In this document: piece by piece, positions 1 to 49,100 of the stretch
How positions within the stretch are numbered: the stretch's first letter is position 1
Layout: the number at the start of each line of letters is the position of its first letter
DNA from: Mytilus edulis
Taxonomy: Eukaryota
DNA: 64,000 nt
NCBI RefSeq assembly: GCF_963676685.1
Contig: NC_092346.1
Coordinates: 90,458,001-90,522,000, forward strand
Direction: 5' to 3'
Position numbers and translations under genes: made by a program
Notes under the pieces: generated by a model
Databases searched by the model: none
What the model was told of the DNA's origin: nothing
What the model saw: only the letters and a program-made list of their open reading frames with translations

Positions 1-108
1 GGCATTAAGTGGTCGTTATTCTATGAAAATAAGTTTGATTCGGAAAATGATCCAAACAAAGTCTTAAAATATCAATAGTTATCAAAAGTACCACGATTAT
101 AATTTAAA

Positions 109-152
109 ACGCCAGACGTGCGTTTCGTCTACACAAGACTCATCAGTGACGC
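109..152 (-). ncRNA. Type I hammerhead ribozyme (intact core)
   Basis: GCGUCA-CUGAUGA-GUCU(ugugu)AGAC-GAAA-CGCACG-UC/UGGCGU; stems I and II pair, minimal stem III. Confidence 0.85.
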
Positions 153-462
153 TCAGATCAAAATAGTTAGAAAGCCAAGCAAATACAAAGTTGAAGAGCA
201 TTTAGGACCCAAATTCCAAAAAGTTGTGCTAAATACGGCTTAGGTAATCTACTCTTGGGGTCAGAAAATCCTAAGTTTTTCGAAAAATTTAAAGTTTTGT
301 AAACAGAAAATTTATAAAAATGACCATATAATTGATATTCATGTCAACACCGAAGTGCTGACTACTTGGCTGGTGATACCCTCGGGGACGAAACGTCCAC
401 CAGCAGTGACATCGACCCAGTGGTGTAAATAGTTATCAAAAGTACCAGGATTATAATTTAAA

Positions 463-506
463 ACGCCAGACGCGCGTTTCGTCTACACAAGACTTATCAG
501 TGACGT
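463..506 (-). ncRNA. Type I hammerhead with G8A core mutation (probably inactive)
   Basis: ACGUCA-CUGAUAA-GUCU..AGAC-GAAA-CGCGCG-UC/UGGCGU. Confidence 0.75.
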
Positions 507-772
507 TCAGATCAAAATAGTTAGAAATACAAAGTTGAAGAGCATTGAGGACCAAAAATTCCCCAAAAATATGCCAAATACGGCTAAGGTAATCTACTTC
601 TGGGGTAAGAAAATCCTAAGTTTTGCAAAAATTCAAAGTTTTGTAAACAGAAAATACAATACAACCATCACACCGAAATAATTGACTAAACCGGGAAAAA
701 ATAATGTCGTAAATAATGAACATACACTATACCATAGATGTTAACAAGTTATCCATAAAAGGCCCTAGCTTG

Positions 773-18950: not shown

Positions 18951-19114
18951 TTATTTACGTCCAAACAAGGAACCAAGATCTGGCAGAAGACCAACAGATT
19001 CTGTGCATTGGTTACAATGTTTTGCACAGTACTTCTGTCCAAATGTGTTTCTGCATATGTTGGTTATATTAATCGTTAGGCAGTCATTACCAAGTATATT
19101 ACCACAAGTTCCGG
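18951..19114 (-). CDS. Minus gene last coding exon, ShKT domain 2 and stop
   Basis: ctttcAG|, GTCGNILGNDCLTINITNICRNTFGQKYCAKHCNQCTESVGLLPDLGSLFGRK*. Confidence 0.9.
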
Positions 19115-22100
19115 CTGAAAGTAGACACGAATAAATTACTAATAAACAACTTTAAGTCGTGGTTTGTACATATTTGATATTTATTTGTTTTTCTTCTTTT
19201 CGTCAAATTTGTGCTTTTCTGGGTTTGCTGTTTGGAATCCTTGGTGATTTTTTTTATCCACAAAGCTCTGAAACTTTGGTACTTTATTCGCCATTCTGTT
19301 TCCTGTTGTCGTCAACGAAGTACACAATTTTGATCTTAATCATTCTATCTCTGATGTATTCGGTTACAAATTCTTTGGATTTTTTTTTCTTTATCTGAAT
19401 TGTAAATTTGGAAATCGGGTATCACTGATGAGTCTTTTAAACAAAAAATGCGTATGATAACAAAAATAATTCTTTATTATGCCGAGTTTTATACGGTTAT
19501 TGAACTCGAATAGAACTTCTATTTAAAACACAAATTAGATCTTTAAATGAAATATAATAAAGTGTTCTTTAATCTTTTTTTGATTCTATGATTTAAGATA
19601 AATGCTAGATTAATAAGTCCGGGGATAAAACAAGAAAAAAACCACCCCAAAAATACCCAAGCAATGGTAAAGTTAATATAAACTTAGATCTAAAAACACT
19701 TTCATTATAATAACAATAGTATACAGGGATAATTCAATATACAAACTACAAAATTAAAAACTTTTTTTAGACTTATATTTACGATACCACAGAAAAGGTT
19801 GTTATAGCTGATTATAGCTCTTCTTTAAAACTTTCAGTTAACTTGAAATTTTTTTGTTTAGACCACATCTGTCGAGAAAGATTGTCTTTCAGGTCCCCAA
19901 GCAATGACCAAATTGAATAATTGTATTTCGTGTAATGAATTTGACCTTTAATAAACGAAATGACCAGTTTTGAAAATTATTTCCTTTACATTTAGAAAAA
20001 ATCTAAACTTTATGACTTGCTAAAAGTTCCGGACTTGTTTCAGACAATATTAGTTAATTCGACCCTTTTAAGACAATTATAGGTTTCAAATAAAAAATGT
20101 TAGCAGAAGCAACAGTTTTGGCATAGAGAGAGAATCCGAAATACGTTATTCAAAATCAAATTTAATTTCTCTATACTGTAGGAGGTGGCATAACTCTGAT
20201 AATAATAATGAAAGTTGTACATTTGCCACTTTAATTTAATGTAACTAATATATTTGGTTCACCACATAAGGACATATCGTGATATTGTTTTAACATACAC
20301 AATATAAGGCCAAGTTCCAGTTCGACTGGTAAGTTTGGAAGATAAAGTTACTTTCAAAACATTTAAAGGGACAAAATACAAATGAGCAATACTGTGATAG
20401 CAATGTCATACACAAGCGCTACAGACTTAATAAGCAAGCACTATGAATTTAATTTTAACATTGCAATGAAATTTACATGCTTGAGAATATTCTTATTCCG
20501 TATTTGCAACGGAAAGGGTATGCATTTAAACAATACACACCATGTGTCTCAAATAAGTTGTCAAATCGAGTCATTGTGATAAATGCAAATGTTCAATAAA
20601 TGTTCAATAACTAAAAGAAAATGATTTAAAAAATCCAAAAGCTGTAGCTAGACTTATACATATAATTATGTACTTACCATGAGCGATTACTAATAAGAAA
20701 TTGCAACAGTTATAGTTTTGAACTTAGTATAACGTTATTTCTTAGTTTTAAGGAGGGTACGCGTAGCCATTTTATAATTAGGGAATAACAGTTTACTCAC
20801 ATGCAATTGTTGGAAGAAGTTGTGATTGAGGGGCTCCTGCAAATATATATATATATATAACATATTCAATTTAAATCATATGACCACTTAGTCCAATTAC
20901 GTTTGGTTTTTAGATTTACTAGAATATATACTTTAAAGCATTCTCCCTGAAAAACAAAACATATGTTATTCATGAACCATACATAAAAAAAATCAGTCAC
21001 ACTCTGTAATAGAAAAATATATGACAAAATGTTCCTTTCTTTTCAGTAACAATAACGTCACCCCTGGTCCTCTGTTAACAGGAGACATCCGTTGTTGAAA
21101 AATGTCTTTATGATTAACATACCCTTTTATTTTTCAAAAGAAAGGGTTTGTTATATATATCATCTACAATAGATAATTCAGCTGATTTTTAATTTTTCAT
21201 CTTCATGCCTTATATATATCATGTAATGTGTTACGATGCTAGATAACAACTGACGAGGAAAGGTCACAACCAACCACCGAAACTTGATTTTTTTCGAAAG
21301 CTATTTGTTCCAGTAGTCAAGCGCGCCCGGCATAGTGCAACACAATTCGGTGCCACGATATTTCTCAGTAGCATTAATTCCAATACCGACCAGAGAATAA
21401 CATAAATTTGCTTCCACCATTATCCTTCAACATTTTAGTTCGCTATATAGAGGATGTATTATTATTGAATGAAAACCGTGCAGGATGCAAACTATGCTAT
21501 TTTATTTGTTTCATTTCTAGACTAAAATCTAAAACTTAACTATCGATCAGTGCACGCACATCTGATGGTTCAAATATGTCAGTATTGTCATCAAAGGTTC
21601 AGTCTTATAATTTGATACGGGAGACGCGAGTTTCGTCTACGCACGACTCAGGGACTCACAGATAAAAAAAAGTTAGAAAGCAAAACAAGTTTAAAGTTGA
21701 AAAGCATAGAAGACCGAAAATTTCAAAAATAGATATGCCAAACACGGATTAAACCCTGTAATGAGAATTGTATACAATATATATTGCGAATATAACAAGT
21801 TAGTAAAAAAAAATGACTTTGTGCATTGGTAAACATGAATATGAACTGGAGATGAAACTAAGTGTAACTATATAGCATAATATATGCATAATTCATGTAT
21901 AACAAAATCAATATTCGCAATATACAAATCTTATTAACAGGGTTTATCAATAACATCTTGATAGAAGTTTATCCACATGAAAAATGTCTACACGGATCTT
22001 ATTCACGTGAAAGTTAAAAACATCAAATTTCAATCTGGGATGTGTGCATTTTATTTCATCGAAATTTTCAAATTCTTTATGTTCTAAATGCAACTTTGTT

Positions 22101-25100
22101 AACATTACAAAAATTTAACATAATGGTATTTTTCATTCGTCGTTTTAACAATTTCTTGACAAATGCAACTTATGATAGGATTTTCGCTCGTCATGAAAAA
22201 CAAAACATAGTCATGATAAAGTGATTACTGATCCTGAACAGCCGAAAGCGTCTTCAGTCTTGATAGGAACTCTTGTTGCCAAAGCCATAACTTTTTTTTA
22301 ATTGTTTTTTTCTGTCTTCTTAGGCTTTTCATCTCGTCTCTTTCTAGTCATTATTTGTGTTTTTTTTATATTATTCTTTTTAGATCACCCTTACCCGGAT
22401 AGGTTTTTGTCTCCGTTTATCTTTCGCTATCAACGTTAAGTATTTTTGGTGTTATTGCTAATTTATTTACAGCTCGATACAAACAAAACACTGTTAATTT
22501 ATGTTGAAGGTATATAACAAGGTGGGGTGAATTTTCACAGTGGGCATAAAATTCTTTCGAAAGCGCAAATTAACTTATAAATAATACTTCGTTCGTGATG
22601 AAGCCCTAAAGAATATACAGTTGTAGAAAAACTGAATACAACAATATCTTAAACATGCATAATAAAAATCATATTACCTATACTACTTTGACATAATGAA
22701 CAGAATCTTGGACATCTGTGTCTGGCTATTGTATGAACAGGACCGTAAGTTGTTCTACATATTCCAATAGAATTGTTCCAATTGCGGCAGCTAAAATTTA
22801 TATCTTCGTAGTCAGTGCAACCAAGTGGAAAATGTTCGTTTATTATTGGTACAGCTAAAAGAACGAAACATTCGCACGTTTATTACAATGAGCAAAACGA
22901 ACAACAGATTTACTAGACAGTACAACGGAACGCACCAATTAACTTATTTCTACAGTTACAGAACGAATAACGCAACATACAGGACTCATGTTCCTTAACT
23001 TGATACACAACTCGACGCATTTGAACGATTACACTGTTTCGAAAACATACATTTTCTTTGTCTATTTAGAAAATTTATTGTAAAGCGAATTCATAATAAA
23101 CTGCATTCTCAAGTTTCCAACAGGATGACCACTAAGTTGATTTAGATAAATCAAAGACGGATAATAATATGCAAATCAGAGTCAAAAGTTACTCAATGCA
23201 AAAGGAAGTTATAGCTAGCTAAGGTAGCCATATGTGATAATTGAATACTACGACACTAAAACAGAATGAAATAATAAATTTAATACCAGAACAAGTTTCA
23301 TTATTAACGGAAATAAGTAATAAATAAGTTGTGTCTTACGAGTTTTTTTTTTAATTTCATCATTAAGCATACACCAGACGAAACTGGAAAGCCCAAGAAG
23401 TATAAGTACCTCATAACTTGATGAACTATTTATCCAGGAAAGAATATAAAAGTTTAGCCAAATAAATCATTAATAAATATTATTTGTTGTGGATAGTTAG
23501 TGATGTTTTTCTTTGACAGAAAAAACACAAAAGTAAACTAAATAACACTGTAAATGGGTTTCTGTTTTTTAAAACAAAAAAAAACACGTTTAACCCGGAT
23601 CATACAATAAGTTTGACAGACTTACGCGTATATTCCATGTATATCACATAAAAACATCGAGTTTCTCCTGGTATACTAAAAATATAGAAACAATCATTTC
23701 AAAATATTATTTTTTTAAAATGTATAATCAGATTCGAGACTTAAACTATATACTCTGGCACTCAATGACAACACGATACCATACATATCACTAAAGCATT
23801 ACATCATTGTGTGAGGTGTAAATGAAATTGCAAAATTTAGTATTATAAAACCAATGCTTATATTGTGTTAACATGTGTCGAGAAAATCAAAAGATTTTGA
23901 AGCATAGGACTCAATTACATTTAATTTACTAGCTGTATTTGGCATACTCATTCGAAATGTTTGGTCCTTAATGTTTATTTTTAAAAACATTAACATAGTT
24001 TATAAATTTTTAGTAATATTAAAACATTAATTGTACCTATCCTTAACAATATGCCGTGTCTTTATATCTCTTATATACACAACACTTTCAGATCATGTAA
24101 ATGAGAGATGTCACATTGGCAATCATAACACATCTTCGTATTACTAGTGTACCAATATTTTAATCTGCATCGAAATAACATCTTCATTCTCGATTATCCA
24201 CAGATAGCTATTAATTGTTCAGTAATACATACTTTGGAAGATATATATTGAAACAGAATCTGTCTTTTCCTGTTGATCCTGGAGGTGGGGTAAACGTAAC
24301 ATCTGTCGTGCAATTACCAAACAATTTAGTATTATCAGCAGATGTAAAAATATGAAGATCGTTCGATGGTCCCTCTGTCTGTTTTACAAAGGGACTGAAA
24401 AAGAAATACATTTTCTGACACTTACAAGTTTCACAAAGTGACAAACACATGTGTTTATTAATTCCATGATTCATTACTGTTCACACATTTAGTGTAAACA
24501 TTATTAGAACTACAAGTAACATACATTCAAAAGCGGTGTAATAAAGTCAACGACAGTTTAAACGATCAACAATCATGATAAACACTATCATGCGCGTCAC
24601 TGATGAGTATTGTGTAGACGAAACGTATGGCGTATCAAATTATATGAGAATAGTACCTTTTGATAACTATTAGTTGTGTGTTCCTCTGTCCTGTATGCTC
24701 TCCCATTTATTTATATTGTAGTCCTGTCATAGGATGTTGTCATTTTAATATTATATTTAACATTGCCATAAAAGCGGGAGGTTTGGCTAACCGCAAAACC
24801 AGGTTCAACCCACCATTTGTTCTTAAAATGTCTCGTACCAAGTCAGTAAAATGACCATGTTATATTGTAGTTCGTTTCTGAGTGTGTTGCATTTTAGTGT
24901 TGTGTTTCTGTTGTGTCGTTGTTCTCCTCTTATATTTGATGTGTTTCTCTCAGTTTTAGTTTGTAACCAGGATTTTTTTTATCAATCGATTTATGAATTT
25001 CAAACAGAGGTATACTGATGTTGCCTTTATTCATAAGGCATTAACAACTTTGACTTTTAAAAAAAGTATCTTATCACCACACAAAGATTACAAAAGAATA

Positions 25101-28100
25101 ACATATAGATTTTCTTGGATCAAAACACTTACAAACCAAACCATAGCATGCATAGACTGAAATTGACAGGATCTTTTTCTCATAAATTATATTATATTAC
25201 ACTATAACTAGAGGTAAAGAAGACTTTGTAGAGTGGTACACGATATCTTCATATCAAGATTAATTGCACACAAATTTGAGGGAGGCTGTGATAAGATGTC
25301 AATGCTACTAAGCACTGACCACTAAGGATAGACACAAATAAGCATTCACACCAATAGACATACACACGAAAACATTAAAAAGTTCTCCTGATATAAAACA
25401 TTATCATTTAGGGTAAAACTTTAAGGACATAAATAGGAAAAATGAAAAACTTGCCCGAGTACTAATTACTAGCTACTGAGATTCACAAATTGTCAGACAT
25501 AAACAAGGAAGTAGGATAAAATAAAACTTACCAGACAGGGTAAAATCCACCAGACATAAACAATAAAGCATGACATGATTTCCCTGGTACACATTGTGTT
25601 ACAGAGTCATGTGGTATTGTTGGCGTGATAAAGTAGGGCTATAATATTTATATAAAAGAAAACATATATATTAGAAAGTTCATAAGAATTCACATGGTTT
25701 TGTCTGAAATTTGTTCAAAATAAATATTGATCTCAATGGCGAATTAACAAGCGAAATCTGTATAAATTGTAGGTTTTCTTTTTGTTTCGATAGAATATAG
25801 ACACCAGTTAATAAAAGAAAAAGTACTATCTTTGTATCAAAATGCATTATTTTTCTTTATATTCAGAACGCATTGTTTACATGAGGCATATTAATACATT
25901 TTATGTCAGAGAAGTCTATGTAGAATAGCCTAGACGTATTTAAATTATTCAAGTTAGCTGACAATAGGTAGAATTTAAATCTAAATAGATAATTTCACCC
26001 AAACACACCTGACTTGTTTCCACTTGATGCTGATAAGAATCTGCAAAAGACAATAGTGTCTTAATTTATATGAAAAAAGAATGTGTCAATGGGACACAGG
26101 TTTCCTCACTTTCAAACATTTAACAAGTCGGTATACAAATTCAAACCTTTTAATTTTCTTTTCTTATTAACTTAATTAAGTCCGTTTTCCGCTAAACTGA
26201 CGATGTTCTCTCACTTAAGCTTAATAATTCAAAGTTTGGTTTGCTTCTTCGACCTTGGGATAAAACATACGACAGTCTGCGTCACATATCGACTTACATC
26301 AAGACATTGACAATGAGGTATAATGTTTGGATTAAAATTTTACGACAAAAGAAATAATTTCAGCTTTTCAGTCCAAACTTTGTCATAACTATGCAATAGG
26401 GCATCAGCACATAAAACGATATTCCAGGGCTTGTATTTCCTATCAAGATTTCCTTGATGAATGGTTGCTGCTTACAAGTAAGCTATTGAACCAATGTTCT
26501 TAAATAGTTGAAATCATTTTTTTATAAATTTTACGGACACATTCACGTGTTGATTGTAGAATAACTGATTCACATATGACATTAGATATGTTCCAATTAT
26601 CGTGACAACATCCTGGCGCCTATTCTGATACTGTGACCTGTCGAATACGACGTGTCACCAGGATGTTCTTTCATAAGTAACGATATGGGTGGCACATATG
26701 GAGCGGACTCAGAATATACGTCCGAAGCAAGTTTTTTTTTTATCATGGCGTAGTAAGTTATTTTCGACTTATAAATGTGAATGTCCCTTTTGAGACTTTG
26801 CATCTTTTTATGATATGTTTTTCGTATGTAGTCATTAGATTCGGGATAAAGTGCTCGAAATCGATCTTAAAAGTTATTTATGGTTGATTTTTAATTTTTT
26901 GCTAAGTAGCCAAAAAACCACAAGAACTTTAAACTAAATAATATAAGGGTAATTTGATCTAAGAACAAGGTTCACATACACGTAAGCCAACTATGGCCTC
27001 AAATTCCAACTATGTTATAAAATATCAAAAGGGCCATACGATGGGAATAATTTTTTTCTATAGCCTTACATTTAGGTAAATTATGTGTATCCATAAGTGA
27101 ACATTCTAGGCTCCAAGTTTGTTACAGTTTAGATAAAATACGATGATGTTGTGTGCATACTTCGGAACTAAAAACGTGAGGAAAGCATTGCCCGTCCGTA
27201 ATCTACGATCCTAAAAATAATGTAACCATAATATGCTAATGATAATATTTGATCGGTAGAGACATAACAATTCTTGAGCATGTTTAACTGTCAGCGTCAC
27301 TCAAGCTAAAACTATTTTAAATCATTAAAAAAAACGTGATTAAGGGTCATTACTGATAATTGATATAACAACTCTTGTTATGAAACATTTGCAGTATTTT
27401 TGGCATGGTTAAAAACATGAACATCGTTGAACGAATTTTACATAACCATTGAAGTAGGACAAATAAAGATGCAAAGGTCATTACATTGCTATATTTACCT
27501 GGAGATTTAATTTCAACCTCAAAACAGAATTCATCGCTAGTTAACCTGAAAACAGTAGAAGAACAGTATTAGTATAAAAATGGTGAATGTATAAAGCTGC
27601 CAACAGAACTTGTGTAGGCTTAGTTCAACTAAGCCTACACAAGTTAACAATATATCATCAGTCATCAAGCTGAATAGGAGCAAATCAATTTAATACTTTC
27701 ATTTGATATTGTTACACAAATTCATCTTCATATCTTTTATGAACCATCTATCGTTCTACATTTGTAAATGCATGTACCAAAGCAGGAATATTAGAGTGTT
27801 GTCCGTTCGTTTGATGTGATTTATCATTTGATTAGGGACTTTCCGTTTTGAATTTTTCCTTGGAGTTCAGTACTTTTGTGATTTTACTCTTTCGTAATCT
27901 AAATAACCCAATGTCTGACAGTTTGTATTAACATACATTATATTTCCTACAGTTTACTGGGAAAATGAAATGAAATTGAAATGTTTATAAGCTATGAACA
28001 GCAAACATGTTAAGGAGGCCATTTTTCATTGGTGTTTTACATTTCATTCTTTAATTTTTTGAAATGACAAAACTATATCAATATGGAAAAGATCGTTGAA

Positions 28101-31100: not shown

Positions 31101-34100
31101 TCAGATCGGATAGAACTGGCTTTATTTTTTTTTTATTAATTTGAATATATTTGTGAAAAGTGTTTGTGATTAAGACATGCATACATTTTTGTAGTAACAA
31201 ATTTACAACATAAGTAAATGGTGTAATGGGCAGATCTTCATTCCCCATTATCACATAATGATCATCGGTTTTATATCAATTTGAATAAAAATAGTGTACT
31301 TACCAACCTGACATGTAAAATAATGTACTACCAACCGGAAAGCTAAAATAATGTACTTACCAAGCTGACAGGTAAGTCCCGAATATCCAGATGAACACTG
31401 GCAGAATCCGTTACTGTCTTTGCCGTTGCAGAAACCTTGGTTCATACAAATCAGTCTGCTGCAGGGTCCTCTAGCTTAAGTGCGCGTAAAAAAAATAACA
31501 TGTTTTTGTTAAATTATCATACATTTTTTTTTTAATTCAGTCAATATATTTGAATAAAAAGTTTGTAATTTTACAATTGGGTAAAACACTAATATGGAAA
31601 ATATTTTTTTTCTATTTATGTATGCTACAGTTTGACAAGTTACCGTGTGAGTAAAAATGTTTTATCTTTTTTAAAATCTATCTTAGACTAGTTAATGTAA
31701 ATGCCAAATTGAAAGATACATTTTAAATTCACGTTAACCTAGGTTATATGTACAAATATAGTATAGAGACATATAGGAATTAATGTATTCGACCTGGGAT
31801 ATATTAATAGATTGGAAAATTGACCTGAAGGCTTTCAATGTCCTACAAATGTTCTTATAAATACGACCAGTAAACCAACCGTGTTTCGTTGATTTAATAT
31901 TAGTTCCATACGATCAATACTATTAGAAAGTACATATAGATATAGGAAGATGTGGTGTGAGACAACTCTCCATCCAAATAACAATTTAAAAAGTAAACCA
32001 TTATAGGTTAAAGTACGGCCTTCAACACGAAAGTTTACTTTAACTCCAAATTCCAATGTCCCTTTTACTTTTGATAACTATTTACACCACTGGGTCGATA
32101 CCACTGCTGGTGGACGTTTCGTCCCCGAGGGTATCACCAAGCCCAGTAGTCAGCACTTCGGTGTTGACATGAATATCAATTATATGGTCATTTTTATAAA
32201 TTTTCTGTTTACAAAACGTTGAAAATTTCGAAAAACTAAGGATTTTCTTACCCCAGGAGTTGATTACCTTCGCCATATTTGGCACAACTTTAAGAATATT
32301 TGGATCCTCAATGCTCTTCAACTTTGTATTTATTTGGCTTTTTAACCTTTTGGATCTGAGCGTCACTGATGAGTCTTATGTAGACGAAACGCGCGTCTGG
32401 TGTATAAAATTATAATCCTGATACTTTTGATAACTATTTGACCAGAAACATTTAGATAAATAGCAGCATAGTAAACACTCTAGAAATAAAGTTTGTTTGA
32501 AATTCAAGCTGCTTTCAAAGGCATGTGTATTAAAATTTTAAAATCGTAATCATTTTGAACACGCGTTTACTTGTAAATAGGTTTTTATGATGCTTATGAA
32601 GACGTAAATAAAGGCAACAGTAGTATACCGATGTTGCAAACTCATAAACATTGATAAACAATAAACATTAAAACATTGATTGATTTTCAAAATACCAAGG
32701 TTGTTAAAAGTAACTCAATAGTGATATGTTGAATTAAATAATATGTTGCTGGTATTTTACAAATTTACTCTTGCAAAAACAAATCCAAGAATCTTGATAT
32801 TAAATGGAAGATAAATACCAGTACTAGTATGCATTAGAAAGAAAAAAACTAAGATACGACTCTATTTCTAGAGAAAAATCAAAACAAGCAAAATGTTTTT
32901 TTTTAGATAATTATAGACCTTTAAAATATTGTCATAAAAAAAAAATTTTGATTTTCATTAGTTGTCATGTATGATCGAAACATATCTTCTTGATCTAAAA
33001 GTATTTTTATCATCTCATGTAGCCATTTTTGAACAACAAGAAGGAAACACATTCCACTATAAAAATATATAATATTTCTATTATTCAAAGGGATGAAGAA
33101 GTTGCCGACTAAAATATATGTACCATGTAATGTTTCTTTCGTTATTGTAATGTTGTAACACCTTTTCTCTCCTTCTCCTCTACAAAACAAAAACAGAATA
33201 TTTTATATAAAATGAATCATTAGGTTAAGTTTTCCGGTCAAAATATCAACTACATATAAATGAACTGCACGGAAGTTATAAATGTAAAGTTCAGACAGAA
33301 GGAACAATTATGATAAACATTAATCAGATCGATAAGTCCATTATAAATTGGGACCTTTTTTGCCCCACTGTTAATTGCTTGCTATTAAAGTATAAAAGTA
33401 AAAATAAGAGTATACTGCAACGAGACTGCAGAACGACTTAAAAAAAACCAAGAAAACTTATACTGTAAGTATACCGTCGTCGAAGGGTAGTGATTAAAAA
33501 AAAGTGTTCATATTAGACACTTTTTGAAGGGCCATATTTTTGATAATTGTCATGGGTGCAACTAATCAAAACGCATGATTATAGAAGTTACCTTCATACA
33601 AAAGACAATATTCAGACACAATAATGTGTCTATATAGCCTTAAATCAGATACAACGAAATATAAGTAAATGTGAAATTTATGTACTGTTATCTGCTTAAT
33701 AAAATGCATTTTTAAAAGTAATTCGCAATAGACAGCTTCATCACATGATGCTTAACAATAGAAAACAATAATATCAGCGTTACAGTTGATACGAGCGGAG
33801 CCTTCGACTTTGTATACTGTTAAAATACACGGATTCTTGCAGACACTGCAAACTTAATGTAGTTATAAAAGAGGGACGAAAGATACCAAAGGGACAGTCA
33901 AACTCATAAATCTAAAACAAACTGACCACGTCATGGCTAAAAATAAAAAAAGACAAATAGAACAATAGTACACATGACACAACATAGAAAACTAAAGAAT
34001 AAACAACACGAACCCCACCAAAAACTAGGGGTGATCTCAGGTGCTCCGGAAGGGTAAGCATATATAAACTGCTGATAAGAAATCATGCATTTCATAGCCT

Positions 34101-37100
34101 TCTGTATTTTGTCATGATACTGTCATGCAATGTATGGGTAGTGTTTGATATTGGCATTTGTTATTCAATTTTTATGCAAAAAAGCCATCTGTAATGCAAT
34201 GCTGTGTTGTAACCACTTTTATCAACATGTTACTTTGTCATAACAACTTTAAAGGTAAAATATAAATATTTGAAAATAAAAAAAAGAAGAGCTATAATAA
34301 AAAAAGGTACACATAGCTGAAACAAATAGACATGTAATATCTTACCCGTGTACTAGTCCAAATTTTCCAGGAGGAGTATTTAAAGTAAAACAAACAGTTA
34401 TTGTTCTTTCTATTTCTGTGTGTATTGACACATCAGTAGAACATGGACTTGGGTCTGTATCTGACTGGAAAACAAAGATTCCATCCTGGGCATTCATATT
34501 AGACTCTATCATTGGGCTGAAAATAGACATTACCTTGCAAAGAATTCTTTAGGTTACTATGTATTTTTGTCTTATCTAAAACTTCGTATAATCTCATAGT
34601 ACGTTACCACATACATTCTGAAAATCAATTTATGTATAGAGTAAATTTAATCAAACATTCCCGTGGGACATGGAAAGCTATGCGAAACTTTCTATTTGAA
34701 ACTAATGATTCAACATCGTCACCATTTTGGTGCATTGGACAAAACCTGACATTATAGCTAGTAAAACCTCGCACTTGTATAACAGTGGCATAACATTCAA
34801 TTATATTGACACCGATGTGTGAACAAAACAAATATACATTATAGGTAAAATCGTCAAAAAACTTACCATAGCACAATAAGACAATGACCGAATGCACAAG
34901 TACCGAACCACTTCAAATGAATATACCACAAAAATACACTTAACAGTTAAATTAATATTCAACTTCATTGCGATCTTCGTTTTCATTTTTTCGTATTCAC
35001 TGTAGTACGAAGTTGCAAGACCCATCAATATAAGGCAATGAAATTGGAATGAAAATGATCACAATAATTTCAAATACAATGTCCGTCGTTACAACATAGT
35101 GGTGCTCAGAGGAAGGCAATAATGCTTTTTCAGAGACAACATGCGTGCACAGAATGAAATCTAACCAACATCATTGTTCCTACTAAATTTGTTATTTCTA
35201 CTTATTCAAAAAAAGAAGTTAAACATCTACTGTTCCTTGATCGTAATTTTTTAGAATTTTTTTTTATGGGATGATCTCTGTTGATATAATGTTTGACAAA
35301 CATTTCTTTCTCATCAAAAATACAAATATAAACCTCTGCCAAAAAAAGGTTCTTATTCATATCATATATATACTTTTCCGTATAAAAAAAGACATACCAA
35401 TTTGAATTATATATTTGGCTCTTTGTCCATAAACGTGTATGGCAAGCTTTTCCAACTGAACATTCAATACTACTTCCATCTGGTAAAGTAGGGGCAATGA
35501 ACTGTGGTTTTGTCTGAAATAACAAAACAACTTCCATGATAATGACAAATAATGCTTTCATTTCAATTAGTCCATGACAACTGTTGACTGGTTGCTAAAG
35601 ATTTATTTTAGAACATTACTATGAGGATTGTGTGAGTTTACAGACATATGCATGCATTTAGATTTATTTAAATACAAACGATTTCTTTTTATTGGTATTA
35701 GATTAAGGCTTAATATCATTTTTATGTTTTCTGAATTGATGGCTTTTGTGAAAACATGTTTCGCTTATCAGAACGAGAAAAAGAAAAATCACAAAAATAT
35801 TAAATACGAGTTTAAAAAAATTGACTTTGATAGTGAATCTTCCGTATCTTAATTTTTTAAGCTCGGTTTTATTAAGAAAAGCAGTTTCAGTAAAGAAGAT
35901 AAAATATGAAACTTAACTAAAAATGTACGTAGGCAACAAAGACCAATTACTAAAAATACCTCATATGAACGTTTGTACCTGGTACCTGGTCAACTATAAA
36001 GACACGATAGATTCATAACAATGCTAATTTTTAAATAAGTTTAATAACCAAGATGCTTTTTCAATTTAGTATCGGAACACATGTTTATAAAATGTTGTCA
36101 CATAAATATGTCTCTCGGTAGTCCACAAAAGGACATTCTGATGGATAGCATCATTGCTTAATTAACTAAAGTTGATGAAACTAGGACGTAGGATCGCAGT
36201 AGAATAGTCAAATCGTGAAATGTACTGATAGCAATGCAAAGTTATAGAAAATACCACTTTTTTTTTATTTTATCAAAAGCAGTTACAATCTAACTACCTT
36301 GAGCATTACACTTAAAATATTGAAAAGATCTTTACAATTGACAGCCGCCGGACTATGACCAATGAACAAGGCCTCTTAATAGTCGTCAAACTAATATGTA
36401 TTGGTAGTAATACAATTACATAGAAGGAAATCTTGAATCTTTCACAAGAACTTCCAATCTAACTATTTTCATACTCTTGCTTTTATTATTATGAATATTG
36501 ATAGTGTTATCAGTAAATTAAACAAAACTAAATATTAAACATGTGCTGTTTCACGGTTCTGCAATCCGTCGATATTAATATTTTGGCACGGCACAAGGTC
36601 ATGTTTTTTCTGACCGTTAATGATGTCTTCATACTAAATCTATTAGAAGTTGGATGTGTACTTATTGATATTTTATCCTTAGAAACCTGAATTTTTTTAT
36701 ATATATTTTGTTATTGGCTTTGTACTTGTTGTCAGATACTGCGAGTACTCTCAGATCTGGAAGGGATGAGGAATACTTATACCCAACCAGATCCTGTCTT
36801 TGTTTTTGTTGGATGATTTCCTTGAAGCTATCAAATGAGGTGAGCCTTAAGTTAGGAGAAAGCTGAGTGCTTACAAACATGTTTAACACCGTCACGTTTT
36901 TTTATATGTTTTTAAATGTCAGGAGCCTGCAGATCAGTCATTGTCGTTGGATCATGTTTTTTTTTTATGAATTAAACCGTTAATTTTTTTTCAAATGGAT
37001 TGTTTCATATTTTCAGGTCGCTGTTTTTTTATAGTTGACTAAACGGTACTTGTTTTTTCTCATTGTTGAAGGCTGTAAGGTTGCCACTGATTGCTTTTAT

Positions 37101-40100
37101 TCACATTTTACCTTCGATAGATAATTGTTTCATTTAAAAATGTACCACATATCATAATGTCTATATTGCGCTTAAAACTTAACATTAGAAAGGGAGTTAT
37201 CAATTGACAGCCATCGGACCAAGACCTGGGAACAGGTCCTTTAATTAAACGATCAACTGATATTTTCTGATAGTAATGCAACTTTTAAGACAAATCATCG
37301 ACCTACCACAAATTATTCTATTTATACTGTCTTAAGCAGAAAAATTAGACATCTATTAGAAAAGCAACACATATGTCTCGCCGTCTCGCGACTTTCGTCG
37401 AAGATGATATAAAAAAAGATTGTAATCTCATAGTTATTATTATGTGGGTACAATAATTTTATTGCAGATCAAACAGAGATTAAATGCGTATCCACAAAAA
37501 AAGTGTAGCTTCCGTTAAAGATTAAGCCGACATGTGGCCATGTTTCTAATGAGTAGATAACTTACATGAGAAACTGGTTTAGATGGTTCTGAAAGTTAAA
37601 CACATAACGAAATATGATCAATTAAACTTGAAAATGTATTTTCAAAAGTTACTTAAGCTTTACTTCAGTACCCAAATTCCCTTCAATAACAAACATATTT
37701 AAAAAGGCATTTATATGTAACAACTTCATGTACATTTTTGAAAGCCTCTTGTAGCTGCATCAACCTAAGATTTTAATAACATTTTTTATATAAAAAAATC
37801 TATTCCCATAAGCGATATTATTTTACAAAAAAACGAAATGAGTGTCCGGTTACAGAACAATGAGGAAATCCTGAATAATCATAGGTATGTGTTATATATA
37901 TATATATGGAACTTCAACTCACGATGAAGAACTGAATAATACTACATGATGTTTGATACAAAAATTACATAGATGTCCATGACGCAAAGTAATATTACTG
38001 AGTCTAACGAGTGCTTTAAGACATACATTCTCCATTATTAACACCAGTTGTATTTTTCACCAATTAAAGACATGTTTCGAAGTAATTGTGTAATTGCTTA
38101 CTTTAGATTCGGCGTCAATCAGATGTGGATACCATAAAATGCCAAATATATGTTAGACAATACATACTATAAGTATCTTTCTTCTTGCAATATTATCAAA
38201 ATATTTTACTTTTCTTACCTTACATAATCATATCCTAATCTCAAATAAATACAGTTACAATAAGGATTGGTTTTAGAAAAAAAACAAATCTTACGAAAAA
38301 AAAGATAACTTCAGCTTTCCGATGTTGAAATCTCTTATTTTTAAAATGAAAAAAAAACATTCTTGCACATGGAGCTAATTTCTCTCATATGATATTCCAA
38401 AGATTGCCTTTCCTATCATGATTTCCTTCGTAGGGGTTGCTGCTGACAAGGTAGCTATTAAACCCCAAGAGGTGAAATTTGAATCATCACTTGGACATTT
38501 TTACAGACATCATCACAAGATGGTTAAACATTATTTAATGGTTGATAAACAGTCAACACTGGATATGTTTAAATTGTCGTAACAACAATCCTGTCCTTTT
38601 TCCTCGAATGTGTCCTTACGAATTTGACTTCTCTTTTCCTTTTGGTATAGGTAGCCCCTCTTTTATTAGAATCAAAAGCAAATAACTATATTTCATATGA
38701 ATTTAATAGACCTTTTCAAATAATTAAACTTTAATTGAACTTACCAGCTGTAACTTCTATTGAATAACATAATTCATCAGCTGTTTGACTGAAACATAAA
38801 GATGCAGCTGATAATTGATTTGAATGAAACTAAAATTAACAGTAAAATCTATATTAATAATGGTTCTCATTCAACTTCAACATATTTTATTTCTTGTTTA
38901 TAAAGATAACCAACAGCTGAGACCCACCTACGAGCGCGGGATTTTCTCGCTGCATTGAAGACCCATTGATAGCCCTTGGCTGTTATCTGCTCTTTGGTTG
39001 GGTTGTTATCTCTCTTTCATTTTCCTCATTTCAATTCTCAATTTTAAAAAGCAGTACCATATTAAACAATATAAACCAAACATCACCAGGAATTATTACC
39101 GTACTTCTTTGGTCGTCTGAACAACTTATTTGTCTTATAAAGTTGTAAATTTCATTAAAATACCCTAAGCAAATATAAAATGTTGATTGGCAATAGGAAT
39201 TAAATTTCCGAAAAAACAAATTCATCATAGAAACAAATTTAAATGTTTTACGTCAGCCATACTTGTCGTCTTCATCATTGACGCGCAAATCAATAAAGTT
39301 AAAAAAGCAAAATAATGTAAGAAGTTGAAGAATCATAAAGATCAAACATTCCTTAAAGTATTGTCTAATAAAGCTTGAGCAATATTTTTCTGTGGTAGTA
39401 AAGACATATTTCGAAGAAAAGGAAAGCCAAAGACTAAGGTGGTGAAACCCTCGGGGAAGCAACACACTTTAAAAGCGAAAGCAGAATTTCTTTTGTTTTT
39501 TAACATTTAAGATATCATAATCTTTATTTAAATAAAACAGCAGAATGTTAATGAACTTATGGCCTTGTAAGAATGGAAATAGATAATTGTCTATGGCATA
39601 ATTAAAACGGATATTGTATATGTGCCCAACATACATAATTGTTTATCAAGTCCAATCGAATGGTTGATCCTTTTATATATAACGTAATTAAAATCGTGAC
39701 GTTTTTAATGGGGTAGATTGACAGTACATCAACAGACGTTTTTAGTTATTGTTATTTTAGTAATCTGTAAATTAAACCCACATGACAAAACATTATGATA
39801 TTACAGCATTTAGTCCCTATAAAGTTGTCCTATTTCTTTTTGAAAAAAAACAAAAAACGTGCTCCAAGAATAATTCAAAATCGACAGTCCCTTATAAAAT
39901 GGCAAAATGAAAAGCTGTAACACATCAAACAAATGAAAATAAAAACTTACCCAGCAGCATTCACAATTTGTACACAAACTTTATGGTTTCCTATTTTCTT
40001 TGGCAGTATAGAAGTAACAGTATAATATACATATGTGTTATTTTTATCCTGTAGAAAATTCAGGCCAAGAACTTGTACACTGGCATCCACAAAACCTTTC

Positions 40101-43100
40101 TTCATTGAAGGTCTAAATATATTAAAAATAAAATTTGTATCATAAACTTTTAGATTGCATTTCACAAAATATGTATTTCATTCCATATTTTTTTTAATAG
40201 TTTTTAAAGGTATGTATTAGAAATGTAAAATTAAAAATGTGTCATGCATTATCTTTTGTTGAATACCGGTCAACGATGGTTTCCGTCATGCAAGTTTCCC
40301 TGTCTCTGGTCCATAACAAATATCTGACACCACTATCCACCAACTTATCAATGGCCATAAACATTTGTTTTCTAATATTGTTTGCCAAACTTAATTTGAG
40401 TGCTGCTGAGATAAATCAATTCAGACACATTTCAAGGTTAATGCATAATTTACACTCGTTCTAAGTGTTTTACGCTACTGCATTTAAACCATAGATTTTA
40501 GGTGTTTGTATTTGCGTGATCAATATATTAATGTCTATTTAGAGGTATTCGGTTAATATAATGTTAACTGTTAAAGATTTCGAATACCTTTCCTCAACAT
40601 CAGGTATGACCAAGGAAATATCCGGTGTATATGCATGATCTATAAAGCCTATATCAGTAATAACAATTAATTTAGGAAATTAATTTTGTTCTAGGTAATA
40701 TTCAGTACAATATTTTATCTGAACAGAATTGATTAGGATTAAGAACGCTTCATACTAAAATAAATTTTGTTTTCCATATTCACCAATACGAATCCCCAGT
40801 AATCAGACATTAGCATTTCACATGGAACTTCTTGCTAGACTTACTGTACATTAGGATCACTGGTAATGACATACAGTATCTCATAAGAATATCCTTAGAA
40901 GACTTACTTTATAATATGATCTCTAGTCAACACAGATAGTATCTCACATTGATATTCTTTTAAAAGACTTACTTTGCCTTAGGATCACGAGTCAACACAG
41001 ATGGTATTTCAAATAGATCTCCTTAGAAGTCTTACTTTACAAAAGGATCTCCAGTCAATACATATGGTATTTAACATGGATCTTCCAGATGACTTACTTT
41101 GCAGAATCATCTCCAGTCAACACATATGGTATCTGACATGGATCTCCGCAGAAGACCTAATTTACATTAGGATTTCCTGTCAACATATATGGTATCTTAC
41201 AAAGATCTTCTTAGATGGCTTATTTTACAAATAATCTCCTGTCAACACAGGTGATATCTCACATGATCTTCTCAGAAGACTTACTTTATAAAAGAATCTC
41301 CAGTCAACACAGATGATATTTCAGGTGATCTTTTTAGAAGACTTACGTTACATTAGGATCTCTAGTCCAAACAGGTGGTATCTCACATGGATCTCCTTAG
41401 AAGACTTACTTTGCATTAGTATCTCCAATCAACACAGATGGTATTTCACATGGATCTTCAAGATGACATTTAATTGATTTTGGTAATGATGATCCTATGA
41501 ACTTAGCCTACAAATAAATGAAACTTCAAGTGAAACAGTACGGTGAACTATAGTTTGGTCTCTTGTGGACAGATGTATATTGGCAATCATACCACATCTT
41601 CTTTTGTATATTAAACACATTCTCACAAAAAAAAACAGTTTTCATTTGAGTGTACTATAAACCTACTTTTAGTTTTATCTAATGTCATCATGGAATTAAA
41701 ACACAGGAATGAAATTTAACGGACATTTGAATACACACACACACACTATTCAAATTCATTTCAGGTTTATGCGTTTCGCTCGGTTTTGGTTTGTTACCCC
41801 GATTTTGTTTATTGTCCCTGGATTTATGAGTTTTGAACAGCGGTATACTACTGTTGCCTTTATTTATGAACCATTCATTTTTGAAATCATCTAATGTTTA
41901 TTGGAATCTTAACATTCAGAGTGTGGTGCAGAAAACATCAAAACGAATAAACTTTACTTACGCCACTTGTTGCAGGATTTGTTAACCTTGTTGTGGTCTC
42001 TGAAAAATAAACACTATGTTGGAATAATTGTCAGCGGGACCAGTTGACAGCCTTTATAGGGTAAAATCAGTACCAGAACAAAACAAAAACAGGTGTCGAG
42101 TTTTTAAAGTCTTATAACGAGTAAGTTTGTTGGCTGTAACATTAAAAATTCCTTGAAAATAAATTCTAAATCTTGATATTCCAAAAAAAAACCAATATTC
42201 TTTCCCAGATCCAAATGTAATCATTAGTACCAGCATACCAATAAGCTTAATCTTGAATCCCCCCAATAAAGCCCAGTTCTGACGTATACAAAAAAGGTCT
42301 TTTTGTCCCTCTTTTTACAATTAGAAGTATAAAAATCAAGGCACGCATCAATAATTGATTGAGTCTTCTAGAGAACCAAAAATGAAATTGTTAGAATTTA
42401 GTTCCATATTGAAAAGTTTCCATTTATACTTATATGTGTCATAATTTTCTTCTTCTAACGGTACATAAACGATATAATTTCTATTCCTATTCTTGTTCTT
42501 TAAGTTTGATTTCGTCGTTGTGTTTTGGTATATCTCTTGTGAATTCGCAAATCATTCTTAAATCATGCATTTGTTGGGAGTACTAGGCATAACATAAATG
42601 TTTGCTAGAAGAAAAATATATACTTACTCTGTTCACAGTGTGGCCCAATATACCCGAGTCTACAGAAACATGTTTTCTTGATACTATCTGTGTGACAATG
42701 TCCACCATTTTTGCAATATTGTTGATTAGATTTTGTTGCAGGACAACTACCTATATATAAATAAAATATGTACTTAATGCACAACTATCAAAGCCTAAGT
42801 CATGTTATCTGAATTGTGTTGTTATATGGTCTGCAAATGGTCTAAACATATTTTAAGGACATAAAACTAATGTTCAGCAGCTAGATAACATTTAACACTG
42901 TAGCGTGGTTTATAAAACGCCTGCAATGAGACGCTTGATAAAAAAAAATATCACTTTTATGCAATTTGTTATTGGCCTGATATAAATCATTAAGGAAGCA
43001 AATAAGGAACTAGAATACCTAAGCATGTTAACCATTTGTTAAAAGCTATACACATTGAAGATCTTAGAAAGTCTTTGTAACAACTATTCTAGACCCTTCA

Positions 43101-46100: not shown

Positions 46101-49100
46101 AACAAGTTTCTTTTCTTTTGAAACCTTTGAAAATGAAGTTTAACATTAATAATAGGATTTTTTTTCCAAAGGAGTAGGGTCGGTAAGGGCCGATTTTTGA
46201 CTCAAATTTAAGGTTTATTAAACGAAAGATTTTGAACACTTTTTAAACACTTTTTAAAAGTATCTATTTCAATCGATTCAATAAATTTATGTTAAAGATA
46301 TGAACTGAGTTTGTCCTTTAAAACGCTCCGATTCAAGCTTAAAGATGAAAAATCTATCAAATATGCAAAACAAAACGTCACTTTTCAGATGTTTTTTGTC
46401 AAAAAAGAAAGTGGCCGCATCCGTGTTCATCCTCAACCTTTATATATGTTATGTATTATCATTAAAAACAACTTACATTTCAGTATTATGAATGAAAACG
46501 AATGCGGCCACTTTCCGTCTAAAATTTAACTAAATTGCTAAAATTGTGAAGATTTCAGTAGTTAAGCATTACCTAATGATATACCTGATATATTTGCATT
46601 GTATTGTCAAAAACAGCCCATGTTTGTGTAGCAGAAGCATTCTACTTTCCAATAAATAGATAACAGATTGCATTTTAACAATTTTGTAAAACTGCTTTAT
46701 TTTGGGGCCAAAAAGAGGAATTGTTTTTAAGTTATATTGGTTTCGAGCTGTTGGATTTAATCATATTTCAATGATTTGAATTAAAAACTACTCTCATTAA
46801 CTACTGATCTTTACAAAAAGAATGATAATAATAATGTATTTCTTATATACACTGTCTCATCTAAATAAAAGAAAATACCTGAGGGACATTCAAACTCATA
46901 AGGCGAAAAGAAAACTGACAATGCCATTGCTCAAAAACAAAACAAAACATACAACAATTACACAGACAAGTAGTAGAACAAACACACATAATAGAAAACT
47001 AAAGACTAATCAACACTTCATTAAAAGTAACAAAAATATTCATTAACATTTTAATAGTAGAAAAGGTGGACTTAGTCACTGTGAATACTAGTTCGATCTT
47101 TCTGGTGCAACTATGATCCTATCGTATGTCTAATTTCTTAAAATTGAGTAATCAATGTATTGTGCTCATTCTATAAAAGCATGAACACCTAAATAAAAAA
47201 CCATTGAAATTAAATAATCTAGTGTTCCCTTCACCATGTTTAATAGTGTGGCCGTCTTTTTTCGTAAGCCCGAAGTACTCTCCAAATACAAGAAATTCAT
47301 AGTATCCATGCATAAAATTGTCAGTCTGTCTTGGTTGGTCCTGTTCATTTAGTCTTCGAATGGAATGATCGCACTATCTGCATATGATTTTATAGCAAAC
47401 ATAAAGCCCACTTTAAATTAAACAAATCCGAAATACATGTTTTCTTTTCAAGTACAAGCCAGGTTTTTAACAACTTTTTATTAAAGTATTTTGTAAAACC
47501 AAATTTATACACAATCTACAATCATATCATTTTACATTGTTTTCAATGGAAGTATTGCAATACTTTTTTCAAGGTGTATATTACAAATTTCACGAAGTTT
47601 TGAATTCTCAAGTATGCTTAGGAACTTCTGGTCCTAAATGCTCTTCAACTTTGTACTCTTTTTTTACTTTCGAACTTTTTTCATCAGAGCGTCACTGGTT
47701 AATCTTTTGTGGACGAAACATGCGTCTGGCGTATAAAATTTTAAACCTGGCACCTATTGTTAAATCTTATTCGAATGTTTTTCTGTCATATATGTTCTCT
47801 CATTTATTTGTATTAATTGTAGTCCTATCATGTAATGTTTCATTTGATGCTATATTTAACATTGCCATAAAAGCGGTAGGTTTGGCATGCCAGGTTTAAA
47901 GCAGGTTCAATCCACCATTTTTTTTATGAAAATGTCCTGTACCAAGTCAGGAAAATGGCAATTGTTATACAATAGTTCGTTTCTGTGTGTGATACATTTA
48001 AATGTCGTGTTTCTGTTGTGTCGTAGTTCTCCTCTTATATTTGATGTGTTTTTCTTAGTTTAAGTTTGAAACCCGGATTTTTTTTTTTCTTAATCATTCA
48101 TAAATATCGAACAGTGGTTTACTACTGTTGCCTTAATCAGTCAAATTTTCAATTATTCTAAAAAGAAATTTGCATAGTTTACTGTAATTCACCCATGATT
48201 TAGAAATTGTTTTTGTCTAGGTTTTAATATCATTATTTGCAACTTTTGGTTACAGGCATTTTCGATCTTAGGATAGTGCCAAGGGTTTCCTCAACTTAAA
48301 AAGTTTAGAAATGTACAAAAGCATTCTATTTTGACAATATATCCAAAATGTGCTATCATAAAGAGATTTTTATTCAAAAGGAAGAAAAGTTTGTGAAATA
48401 TATATAAAAAAGAAAATGTGGTATGATTGCCAATGAGACAACTATCCACAAAAGACCAAAATGACACAAACATTAACAACAATAGGTCACCGTACGGCCT
48501 TCAACAATGTGCAAAGCCCATACCGCATAGTCAGCTATAAAAGGCCCAGATAAGACAATGTAAAACAATTCAAACGAGAAAACTAACGGCCTTATTTATG
48601 TAAAAAAATTAACGAAAAACAAATATGTAACACATAAACAAACGACAACCACTGAATTACAAGCTCTTGACTTGGGACATGCACATACATAAATAATTTG
48701 GCGGGGTTAAACATGTTTATACATTTAAAAAACAATTTATAACCTTTTAAAAACTGTGCAGATTACAATTAAGAAATAAACTTCAACTAATTTCAGGTCA
48801 TAAACCATATAGAAGCCATTCAACAATAGCACATAAAATCTATGTATGTATTCTTACGTTGCTTGAAAACAAACTTCCGTTTTAGTTCCAACAGCTAATC
48901 CTATTGTACTGTAAGCAATATCAGAATGACAAACTGTACCCAAACCACTACGGTAAAATTCCATTTCTTTAGGTCCAAACACAGTGCAGGGTGCATCACT
49001 TTGAAACACTGGTGGTAAACTGTAATTAAAAAAAACAGCATTGTCTAATTATAAAATTATCAAATCAAATTACCTATTGAATTGGATGGATCCCACTATA

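What the first reader, a model, noticed from the sequence alone, without database searches (positions are those of the whole stretch)
32066..32439. Hammerhead-bearing ~355-bp retrozyme unit predicted to yield small circular RNAs
Seen: complete type I hammerhead core with a palindromic CGCGCG mini stem III, inside a unit that also occurs head-to-tail at 74-655. Established: minimal type I hammerheads with weak stem III cleave as dimers, and tandem non-LTR retrozymes of about this size produce circRNAs in metazoans, including Mytilus galloprovincialis (from memory of Cervera and de la Pena's work). This is a known class but invisible to ORF annotation; the window holds at least 7 full or decayed copies (109, 463, 19422, 21616, 24594, 32360, 47689).
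Basis: partly seen in the sequence, partly recalled or inferred. Interest (0 to 1): 0.7.

Follow-up and report, generated by a model that had tools for sequence, protein, structure and literature searches.

The report
Mussel retrozyme carrying Naiad's copying signal
This is one likely dead copy of an abundant mussel repeat with a self-cutting RNA motif, of a kind already published as making RNA circles, but the repeat shares a predicted RNA hairpin with Naiad jumping genes and copies of both stop right in front of it, so the Naiad enzyme is likely the unnamed helper that pastes these RNAs into the genome.

Summary
The hammerhead at 32360-32403 is real, and the 355-nt unit belongs to a very abundant family (16,651 exact core matches) of the published mussel non-LTR retrozyme type.

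Two corrections. The ribozyme is the canonical invertebrate type (2-bp stem III), reported to cut as a monomer in mussel. This copy is one permuted unit plus 18 nt with a single, weakened ribozyme, so it cannot release a circle.

The family shows a mechanism. 24 of 25 sampled loci end about 40 nt past the cleavage site, 5' ends vary, and units of an array look born at once. Just beyond that fixed end lies a 62-nt covarying stem-loop. It also opens three families of intact Naiad retrotransposons, whose copies end in the same register (36 of 42). Other Penelope-like elements sampled lack it. Most likely Naiad reverse transcriptase binds it, starts just upstream and copies round the circle. No activity was tested, and template jumping on linear RNA remains possible.

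My paper searches did not find this link in print. The scan noted it before on other DNA, this genome included; I took the lead from those notes and tested it here.

The parts
32066..32439 (+). Retrozyme insertion: one permuted unit (+25 to +355, +1 to +42 from the cleavage site), about 95% identical to the youngest arrays
32066..32083 (+). 5' copy of the 18-nt terminal redundancy (copying overshot one lap; inferred)
32086..32149 (+). Stem-loop shared with Naiad retrotransposons; likely binding and start-site signal for reverse transcriptase
   Evidence: (84% over 64 nt to Naiad family 3)
32149..32168 (+). Second hairpin with a cUUCGg loop, retrozyme-specific; arms differ compensatorily in subfamily C
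32360..32403 (+). Type I hammerhead; cut predicted after C32397; stem I weakened by T at 32401
32422..32439 (+). 3' copy of the terminal redundancy, with the family's fixed 3' end (+39 = A32436)
74..655 (-). Second insertion, 1.6 units, same fixed 3' end; hammerheads at 463-506 (G8-to-A) and 109-152 (loop GCAC)
21584..21742 (-). Decayed 5'-truncated copy
39240..39370 (-).
24586..25034 (+). Naiad family-2-lineage 3' end with an embedded retrozyme relic (24590-24671)
47618..48137 (+). Naiad family-2-lineage 3' end with an embedded retrozyme relic (47618-47756)

Best explanation
The locus is a single, likely inactive insertion of an abundant mussel hammerhead repeat whose copies share a fixed 3' end directly before a predicted stem-loop also found in Naiad retrotransposons, so it was likely written into the genome by Naiad reverse transcriptase copying a circular RNA. 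Steps. (1) Tandem arrays elsewhere are transcribed; family RNA is sense-biased (shown for the family, source loci not shown). (2) Hammerheads cut once per unit and a host ligase closes 355-nt circles (published for mussel repeats; inferred for this family). (3) A Naiad protein (N-terminal GIY-YIG endonuclease plus RT) binds the 62-nt stem-loop, nicks AT-rich DNA and starts cDNA 2-5 nt upstream of the stem-loop, about 40 nt past the ligated cleavage site (inferred from shared fold and shared end register). (4) It copies round the template and drops off at variable points, giving fragments, 1.05-lap copies like this one, and arrays of 20 or more units (anatomy shown, process inferred). (5) This copy has one weakened ribozyme, lies antisense in a likely intron, and would not release a circle.
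For: Fixed end. 24 of 25 distinct loci from the first 30 exact 42-mer hits end at +40 to +46; the exception looks split by an insertion. Across 39 insertions the match is 39/39 at +39, 29 at +40, 22 at +42 and 4 at +47.

Template continuous across the cut. 2,242 matches have the cleavage-site C in front and 83 do not; only 11-13 start exactly at +1, against roughly 8-9 expected from the general drop-off rate (my estimate).

Arrays born at once. Most arrays carry their own fixed variant set in all units; 62 of 78 other variants are singletons against 44 expected under gradual amplification; arrays of 18 and 10 units are invariant.

Shared signal. The retrozyme and Naiad families 2 and 3 give the same minimum-energy stem-loop (z -2.7 to -4.1). 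9 of 23 pairs change on both sides and 95.7% of cells pair, against 36-52% in slid controls. 36 of 42 Naiad 3' ends fall 0-5 nt before the element. A model of it hits 17 of 20 Naiad regions and no body of 39 other Penelope-like regions. Naiads have many intact 1,000-1,053-aa ORFs; family 1 matches Naiad_Mgal of PMC8557442.

Precedent and natural test. A Poseidon RT starts internally and needs downstream RNA (PMC11167929). A 201-nt mini-Naiad (hairpin plus short flanks) is inserted in tandem with the proper end.
Against: No cleavage, binding or reverse transcription was measured. Reads cannot show circles: head-to-tail joints (350, 383 and 45 reads) also arise from tandem arrays, and no read ends pile up at the cut.

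Two Naiad-3 copies are preceded by 83-nt tandem repeats of the hairpin (24 and 2 exact hairpin matches), and the mini-Naiad has no hammerhead. Naiad RT may therefore build arrays without ribozyme-made circles.

The covariance model was built from these same sequences, so only its negative result is informative. Covariation counts include related sequences. Target-site duplications of 6 nt or more occur in only 6 of 39 insertions (2.2 by chance). Two arrays (C12a, C1c) show neighbour-shared variants from later duplication. Identity to the published mussel circRNA sequences could not be checked (supplement unreadable).
Confidence: 0.7

Rival explanations
1. The stem-loop marks an RNA end (transcription start, protein-assisted cut or an unknown self-cleavage). 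Naiad RT primes at the 3' end of a linear unit RNA and makes arrays by template jumping, so ribozyme-made circles are a side product.
For: 83-nt hairpin-only repeats with the same junction (3 nt before the hairpin joined to 80 nt into it) precede Naiad-3 copies at two loci, and a hammerhead-free 201-nt mini-Naiad is tandem. 10 of 31 hairpin-bearing units lose the template between +61 and +1, about twice the general rate (read by eye).
Against: Those 5' ends are spread over 60 nt, and none sits at +42 to +45. Junctions at +39 to +45 are unscarred inside arrays. No read ends pile up there. No Rfam ribozyme matches the element. Circles dominate mussel retrozyme RNA in PMC7229834.
Confidence: 0.17
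2. The stem-loop is shared only by descent (the retrozyme arose from a Naiad terminal repeat). Another Penelope-like enzyme moves the family, and arrays grow locally by unequal crossing-over, as proposed for vertebrate retrozymes.
For: bioRxiv 10.64898/2026.07.22.740005 derives Xenopus retrozymes from PLE terminal repeats and invokes local amplification. The genome has many active hammerhead-bearing PLEs. A retrozyme-like segment sits in Naiad-2 UTRs.
Against: Pairing is kept by compensatory changes while flanks are unrelated, and both element types end in the same register. Other PLEs share no sequence with the unit and end at their own sites, often in TA repeats. Array variants are star-like. 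The segment in Naiad-2 is closest to subfamily A (72% vs 68-70% for B, none for C), which fits a later capture.
Confidence: 0.09
3. One reading: the unit is transcribed, its hammerhead cuts as a dimer, and the locus yields a 355-nt circle.
For: Intact core and a perfect 8-nt palindrome (self-duplex -13.3 kcal/mol). The family is expressed.
Against: One ribozyme only. Weakened stem I. Reads carry family letters, not this copy's (C at 32401 in 1,248 of 1,297 reads in X21), and unique flanks have essentially no depth (the runs may be a sister species and only 6-18% of each was read).
Confidence: 0.04

Closest known systems
Mytilus galloprovincialis non-LTR retrozymes (Cervera and de la Pena 2020, PMC7229834; read parts 1-4 of 6; supplement not readable)
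   Same: 350-390-bp AT-rich repeats, one type I hammerhead per unit lacking the usual loop-loop consensus, thousands of copies, tandem arrays, sense RNA.
   Different: The paper names no helper and does not map insertion ends. The companion review (PMC7761336, passages) says the repeats show no conserved motif pointing to a helper. Here a fixed end and a Naiad-shared stem-loop are shown.
Naiad Penelope-like elements (Craig et al. 2021, PMC8557442; section 6, passages, supplement rows)
   Same: 5' truncation, fixed 3' end, tandem copies, AT-rich targets; the shared stem-loop sits at the unit junction.
   Different: Naiads code for endonuclease and RT and are described as lacking canonical hammerheads. 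The retrozyme codes for nothing and has one. No junction stem-loop is mentioned in the passages read.
Poseidon_Ac internal initiation (Frangieh et al. 2024, PMC11167929; parts 1-2 of 4)
   Same: Reverse transcription starts inside the RNA, needs sequence downstream of the start, targets AT-rich DNA and does not need hammerhead cleavage.
   Different: Another clade. The start lies in an AC-rich stem-loop about 115 nt into the ORF. No non-autonomous partner or circular template was tested.
Vertebrate retrozymes as PLE derivatives (Li et al., bioRxiv 10.64898/2026.07.22.740005; parts 1-3 of 5; supplements closed)
   Same: Proposes PLE machinery as the mobiliser.
   Different: Based on co-occurrence and terminal-repeat homology in Xenopus; no mussel, no termini, no cis-signal. 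Here the likely partner is a hammerhead-free clade.

Membership tests
Metazoan non-LTR retrozyme | Canonical type I hammerhead, one per unit | tested here: met
   Rfam hit; covariation in all three stems
Metazoan non-LTR retrozyme | Short (150-450 bp) AT-rich units in tandem arrays at dispersed loci | tested here: met
   355-nt units, arrays on many contigs; this copy is a lone unit
Metazoan non-LTR retrozyme | No coding capacity | tested here: met
   Only a 97-codon antisense open stretch, with no Pfam match
Metazoan non-LTR retrozyme | Expressed as RNA of the ribozyme strand | tested here: met
   Family level: 5-9:1 strand bias in the 5' part in 2 of 3 raw-read runs; the third shows about 1:1
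Metazoan non-LTR retrozyme | Accumulates as circular monomer | tested here: inconclusive
   Head-to-tail reads are present but also expected from tandem arrays
Metazoan non-LTR retrozyme | Self-cleavage in vitro | not testable with these tools
   Published for a mussel repeat; sequence identity to it unchecked
Minimal (PLE-type) hammerhead | Helix III absent, helix II long, dimer required | tested here: not met
   2-bp stem III with covariation, 4-bp stem II; definition from PMC4209133 part 1
Naiad clade (proposed helper) | N-terminal GIY-YIG before RT, DKA motif | tested here: met
   EN motif at residue 135-179 and DKA in all ORFs; Pfam; family 1 about 97% identical by eye to Naiad_Mgal over the 400 residues shown
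Naiad-mobilised non-autonomous element | Shares cis-element and 3'-end register with Naiads, not with other PLEs | tested here: met
Naiad-mobilised non-autonomous element | Naiad protein binds and reverse-transcribes it | not testable with these tools
   needs an in vitro assay

The most novel reading that the evidence does not exclude
Mussel retrozymes are circular parasites of a ribozyme-free retrotransposon. A 62-nt stem-loop taken from Naiad recruits its reverse transcriptase and fixes an internal start just upstream. Because the signal lies beyond the copied 3' end, it can only be inherited through a circular or tandem template, and the hammerhead's job is to supply that template. The stem-loop would be a portable module that turns any small RNA circle into a substrate for genome insertion.
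Probability: 0.55. Interest if true: 0.75.

Novelty: new member of a known kind. Interest (0 to 1): 0.55.

Why it matters
The element itself is a known kind, probably the published mussel family, and this copy is unremarkable. What matters is the family anatomy. The authors who defined animal retrozymes left the mobilising enzyme open and saw no motif pointing to it; a 2026 preprint still calls the mechanism unresolved. A defined RNA element, an exact start register and intact candidate proteins in the same genome make that question testable with an existing type of in vitro assay. It would also give the first cis-signal for Naiads, and explain how a hammerhead-bearing parasite uses a hammerhead-free helper.

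Tried and rejected
(1) A second class of array ends suggested was an artefact of search clipping.

(2) An antisense hammerhead or ribozyme-blocking strand at 32112-32140: the middle letters vary between subfamilies, the region folds on itself, and no stem I forms. Rejected as coincidence.

(3) Endonuclease-less two-ORF PLEs (20 regions) and C-terminal-endonuclease PLEs (19 regions) as helper: they have their own minimal hammerheads, and the unit matches only retrozyme insertions in their flanks.

(4) The empty insertion site: contigs of four runs showed no joint across the copy among the rows displayed. No conclusion.

(5) Whole-circle folding is not unusual (z -1.2 and -1.9), and the active hammerhead is 7.5-9.9 kcal/mol above the minimum.

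(6) A polymerase III B-box-like look of the stem-loop's 5' arm (consensus recalled) is not kept in Naiad family 2.

(7) The singleton count was hand-tallied and is replaced, which skipped the C14 array and left out C12a and arrays under 4 units from the total.

(8) One search left out L113, L119, L120, L031/L032, L034, L038, L041 and duplicates; one included row (L033) really ends at +33.

(9) A sequence look-up in earlier notes found nothing.

Full report
Observation. The window holds a full type I hammerhead at 32360-32403: stem I 6 bp, core CTGATGA, stem II 4 bp with a 5-nt loop, GAAA, stem III 2 bp with a GCGC loop, and the cut after C32397. Rfam scores it 31.1 bits (E 0.001), slightly below the gathering threshold; two more hits lie at 109-152 and 463-506. 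Across 11 sequences of several subfamilies, 6 of 12 pairs change on both sides. The element spans 32066-32439 and is one permuted unit with an 18-nt terminal repeat. Positions below count from the first base after the cut (+1).

Family and host. The genome (1.37 Gb) has 16,651 exact matches to a 27-nt core pattern and 1,879 to a 42-mer, with 0 for the reversed controls. Arrays of 355-nt units lie on many contigs. A Naiad protein of this genome is nearly identical to Naiad_Mgal in the supplement of PMC8557442, so the host is inferred to be a Mytilus mussel. Size, ribozyme type and arrays fit the mussel retrozymes of PMC7229834, whose cloned repeat cut at about 0.1 per min and whose RNA is mostly circular. 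Their sequences could not be compared.

This copy. A monomer needs two cuts, and this locus has one ribozyme. Its stem I carries T for C at 32401, which lowers the duplex from -5.9 to -1.1 kcal/mol and raises the gap to the active fold from 5.5 to 10.6. In the 74-655 copy the upstream ribozyme has A at core position 8; changes at G8 abolish cleavage (G8C in PMC11167929; the C3-G8 pair is established knowledge). Raw RNA reads cover the unit deeply but carry family letters (C at 32401 in 1,248 of 1,297 reads in X21). Unique flanks have essentially no depth. Exon-like frames on the minus strand flank the copy: an EGF-like exon at 31254-31475 (Pfam E 5.8e-5) and repeated modules at 25519-25638, 35385-35519 and 51337-51435. 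It therefore lies antisense in a likely intron.

Expression of the family. In X21 the bias to the ribozyme strand is 5-9:1 over the 5' part and about 2:1 over the hammerhead; X22 is similar; X24 is about 1:1. Neighbouring repeats show 1-3:1. Head-to-tail joints number 350, 383 and 45 reads, which does not prove circles, and no read ends pile up.

Insertion anatomy. Of the first 30 exact 42-mer hits, 25 are distinct loci; 24 end at +40 to +46 by BLAST, and the other appears split by a later insertion. The query required +1 to +27, so ends could have fallen anywhere beyond. In 39 insertions the match is 39/39 at +39, 29 at +40, 30 at +41, 22 at +42 and 4 at +47. 5' ends vary; 15 of 22 are shorter than one lap. 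Duplications of 6 nt or more flank 6 of 39 (2.2 expected). If the template were a cleaved linear monomer, copies would pile up starting at +1. Instead 2,242 matches are preceded by the cleavage-site C and 83 are not. I read 50 of the 83; 32 of the rest are further array units and one is a point variant seen. Only 11 clear and 2 doubtful copies start at +1, against roughly 8-9 from a drop-off rate of 0.003 per nt. Most arrays have their own fixed variant set in every unit and usually in the partial first unit; 37 of 53 such variants recur in another array (8 of these only between two neighbouring C9 arrays). 62 of 78 other variants are singletons, against 44 for gradual amplification. This fits one template copied repeatedly, with some later local duplication (C12a, C1c).

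Search for the helper. Twenty regions of endonuclease-less PLEs and 19 of other GIY-YIG PLEs showed their own minimal hammerheads and no similarity to the unit. Earlier notes of this scan pointed to Naiad, and I tested that. Three Naiad families with many intact ORFs (1,053, 1,007 and 1,000 aa) carry, at the start of the coding region, a homologue of unit positions +45 to +107; family 3 is 84-87% identical over 63-64 nt. The retrozyme and families 2 and 3 fold to the same bulged stem-loop, and family 1 has the same outer stems plus an inserted hairpin. On 16 aligned sequences, 95.7% of cells pair and 9 of 23 pairs change on both sides; slid controls give 36-52%. Naiad 3' ends fall 0-5 nt before the element in 10 of 10, 12 of 12 and 14 of 20 cases (read-through and region-edge rows left out), the same register as the retrozyme (2-5 nt). 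A covariance model hits 17 of 20 Naiad regions, the three misses being 5'-truncated copies. It hits no body of the other 39 PLE regions, only retrozyme insertions beside them. Rfam has no match to the element.

Mechanism. Shown: ribozyme motif, fixed end, continuity across the cut, star-like arrays, shared fold and register, intact Naiad ORFs. Published: cutting and circles for mussel repeats; internal initiation needing downstream RNA for another PLE. Inferred: Naiad protein binds the stem-loop, primes on nicked AT-rich DNA just upstream, and laps the circle. This copy is one lap plus 18 nt.

Results that cut the other way. Two Naiad-3 copies are preceded by 83-nt repeats of the hairpin alone, with the same junction at both loci, and a hammerhead-free 201-nt mini-Naiad is inserted in tandem with a normal end. 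The mini-Naiad supports the stem-loop as the cis-signal, but both show arrays can arise without a hammerhead, which keeps template jumping on linear RNA alive.

Further finding. All 7 intact Naiad-2 regions examined carry a decayed retrozyme segment in the 3' UTR (70-74%, about 265 nt, ending at +41). An older large family has the same join; all 29 loci examined continue into Naiad-2 UTR, and 6 keep a core-like motif. The segment begins at +105, just past the stem-loop. It is nearest subfamily A, so capture of a retrozyme by a Naiad ancestor is the simpler reading. The window's copies at 24594 and 47689 belong here.

Literature. Searches: retrozyme + Mytilus + hammerhead; Penelope + hammerhead + pLTR + tail (27); retrozyme + Penelope (34); Naiad + retrozyme (74); Naiad + Penelope-like + non-autonomous (75); Penelope-like / internal initiation / retrozyme (93). 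In the texts and passages read, none describes a Naiad-retrozyme shared element or maps retrozyme ends. Subscription papers and two sets of supplements were not visible and could hold it.

Verdict. A real, ordinary, likely inactive copy of a known kind of element. The family gives a specific and testable answer to which enzyme moves it. Interest 0.55; mechanism confidence 0.7.

Noticed in passing
L355:741-2732 (G000 C12) and L356 (G000 C10): 83-nt tandem repeats made only of the Naiad-3 stem-loop plus 20 nt (23 identical units in L355) sit directly before Naiad copies; the junction register is the same at two loci. Suggests repeated re-initiation or jumping at the RNA 5' end.
   Followed up: partly
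L357:643-1046: Hammerhead-free 201-nt internally deleted mini-Naiad in tandem, 5'-truncated, with the normal Naiad 3' end.
   Followed up: partly
L309-L315 3' UTRs; L326-L354; window 24586-25034 and 47618-48137: The Naiad-2 lineage carries a captured, decayed retrozyme segment (+105 round to +41); some older copies keep a hammerhead core, although Naiads are described as lacking one.
   Followed up: yes
window 12878-13399 (-); L081-L100: Several young Penelope-like families with an upstream 220-270-aa ORF and an RT ORF of 635-729 aa with no GIY-YIG domain, minimal hammerhead-like cores, tandem and inverted copies, dispersed inside chromosomes.
   Followed up: partly
window 18954-51435 (-): Exon-like pieces of a gene with repeated unknown modules, an EGF-like exon (31254-31475) and ShK-like cysteine patterns (22652-22879, weak Pfam match; 18954-19151, by eye).
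   Followed up: partly
L243 (G000 C3:104727896-104735378): A 22-match array in which every unit has GUU instead of GUC at the cleavage triplet; among the 83 non-C matches only 1 has G, the base that blocks cleavage.
   Followed up: partly
window 32605-32665, 33866-34063, 63654-63928, 16832-17398, 7826-8131, 10334-10483, 41766-41867: Many short repeats in the window are Naiad 3' ends of families 1-3.
   Followed up: partly
L034:1678-3456 and 7135-10000: Two neighbouring retrozyme arrays with the same variant set; the flank before one is the reverse complement of the flank after the other.
   Followed up: no
L282, L289, L293, L294: Divergent retrozyme subfamilies (about 350-nt units) with different hammerhead stems but the same stem-loop at the same place.
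   Followed up: partly
window 44621-45701 (-) and 50584-51063 (+): Broken LINE-like fragments (zf-RVT match in the first).
   Followed up: no
window 11920-12001 (-): Isolated decayed copy of the stem-loop without a recognisable hammerhead nearby.
   Followed up: no
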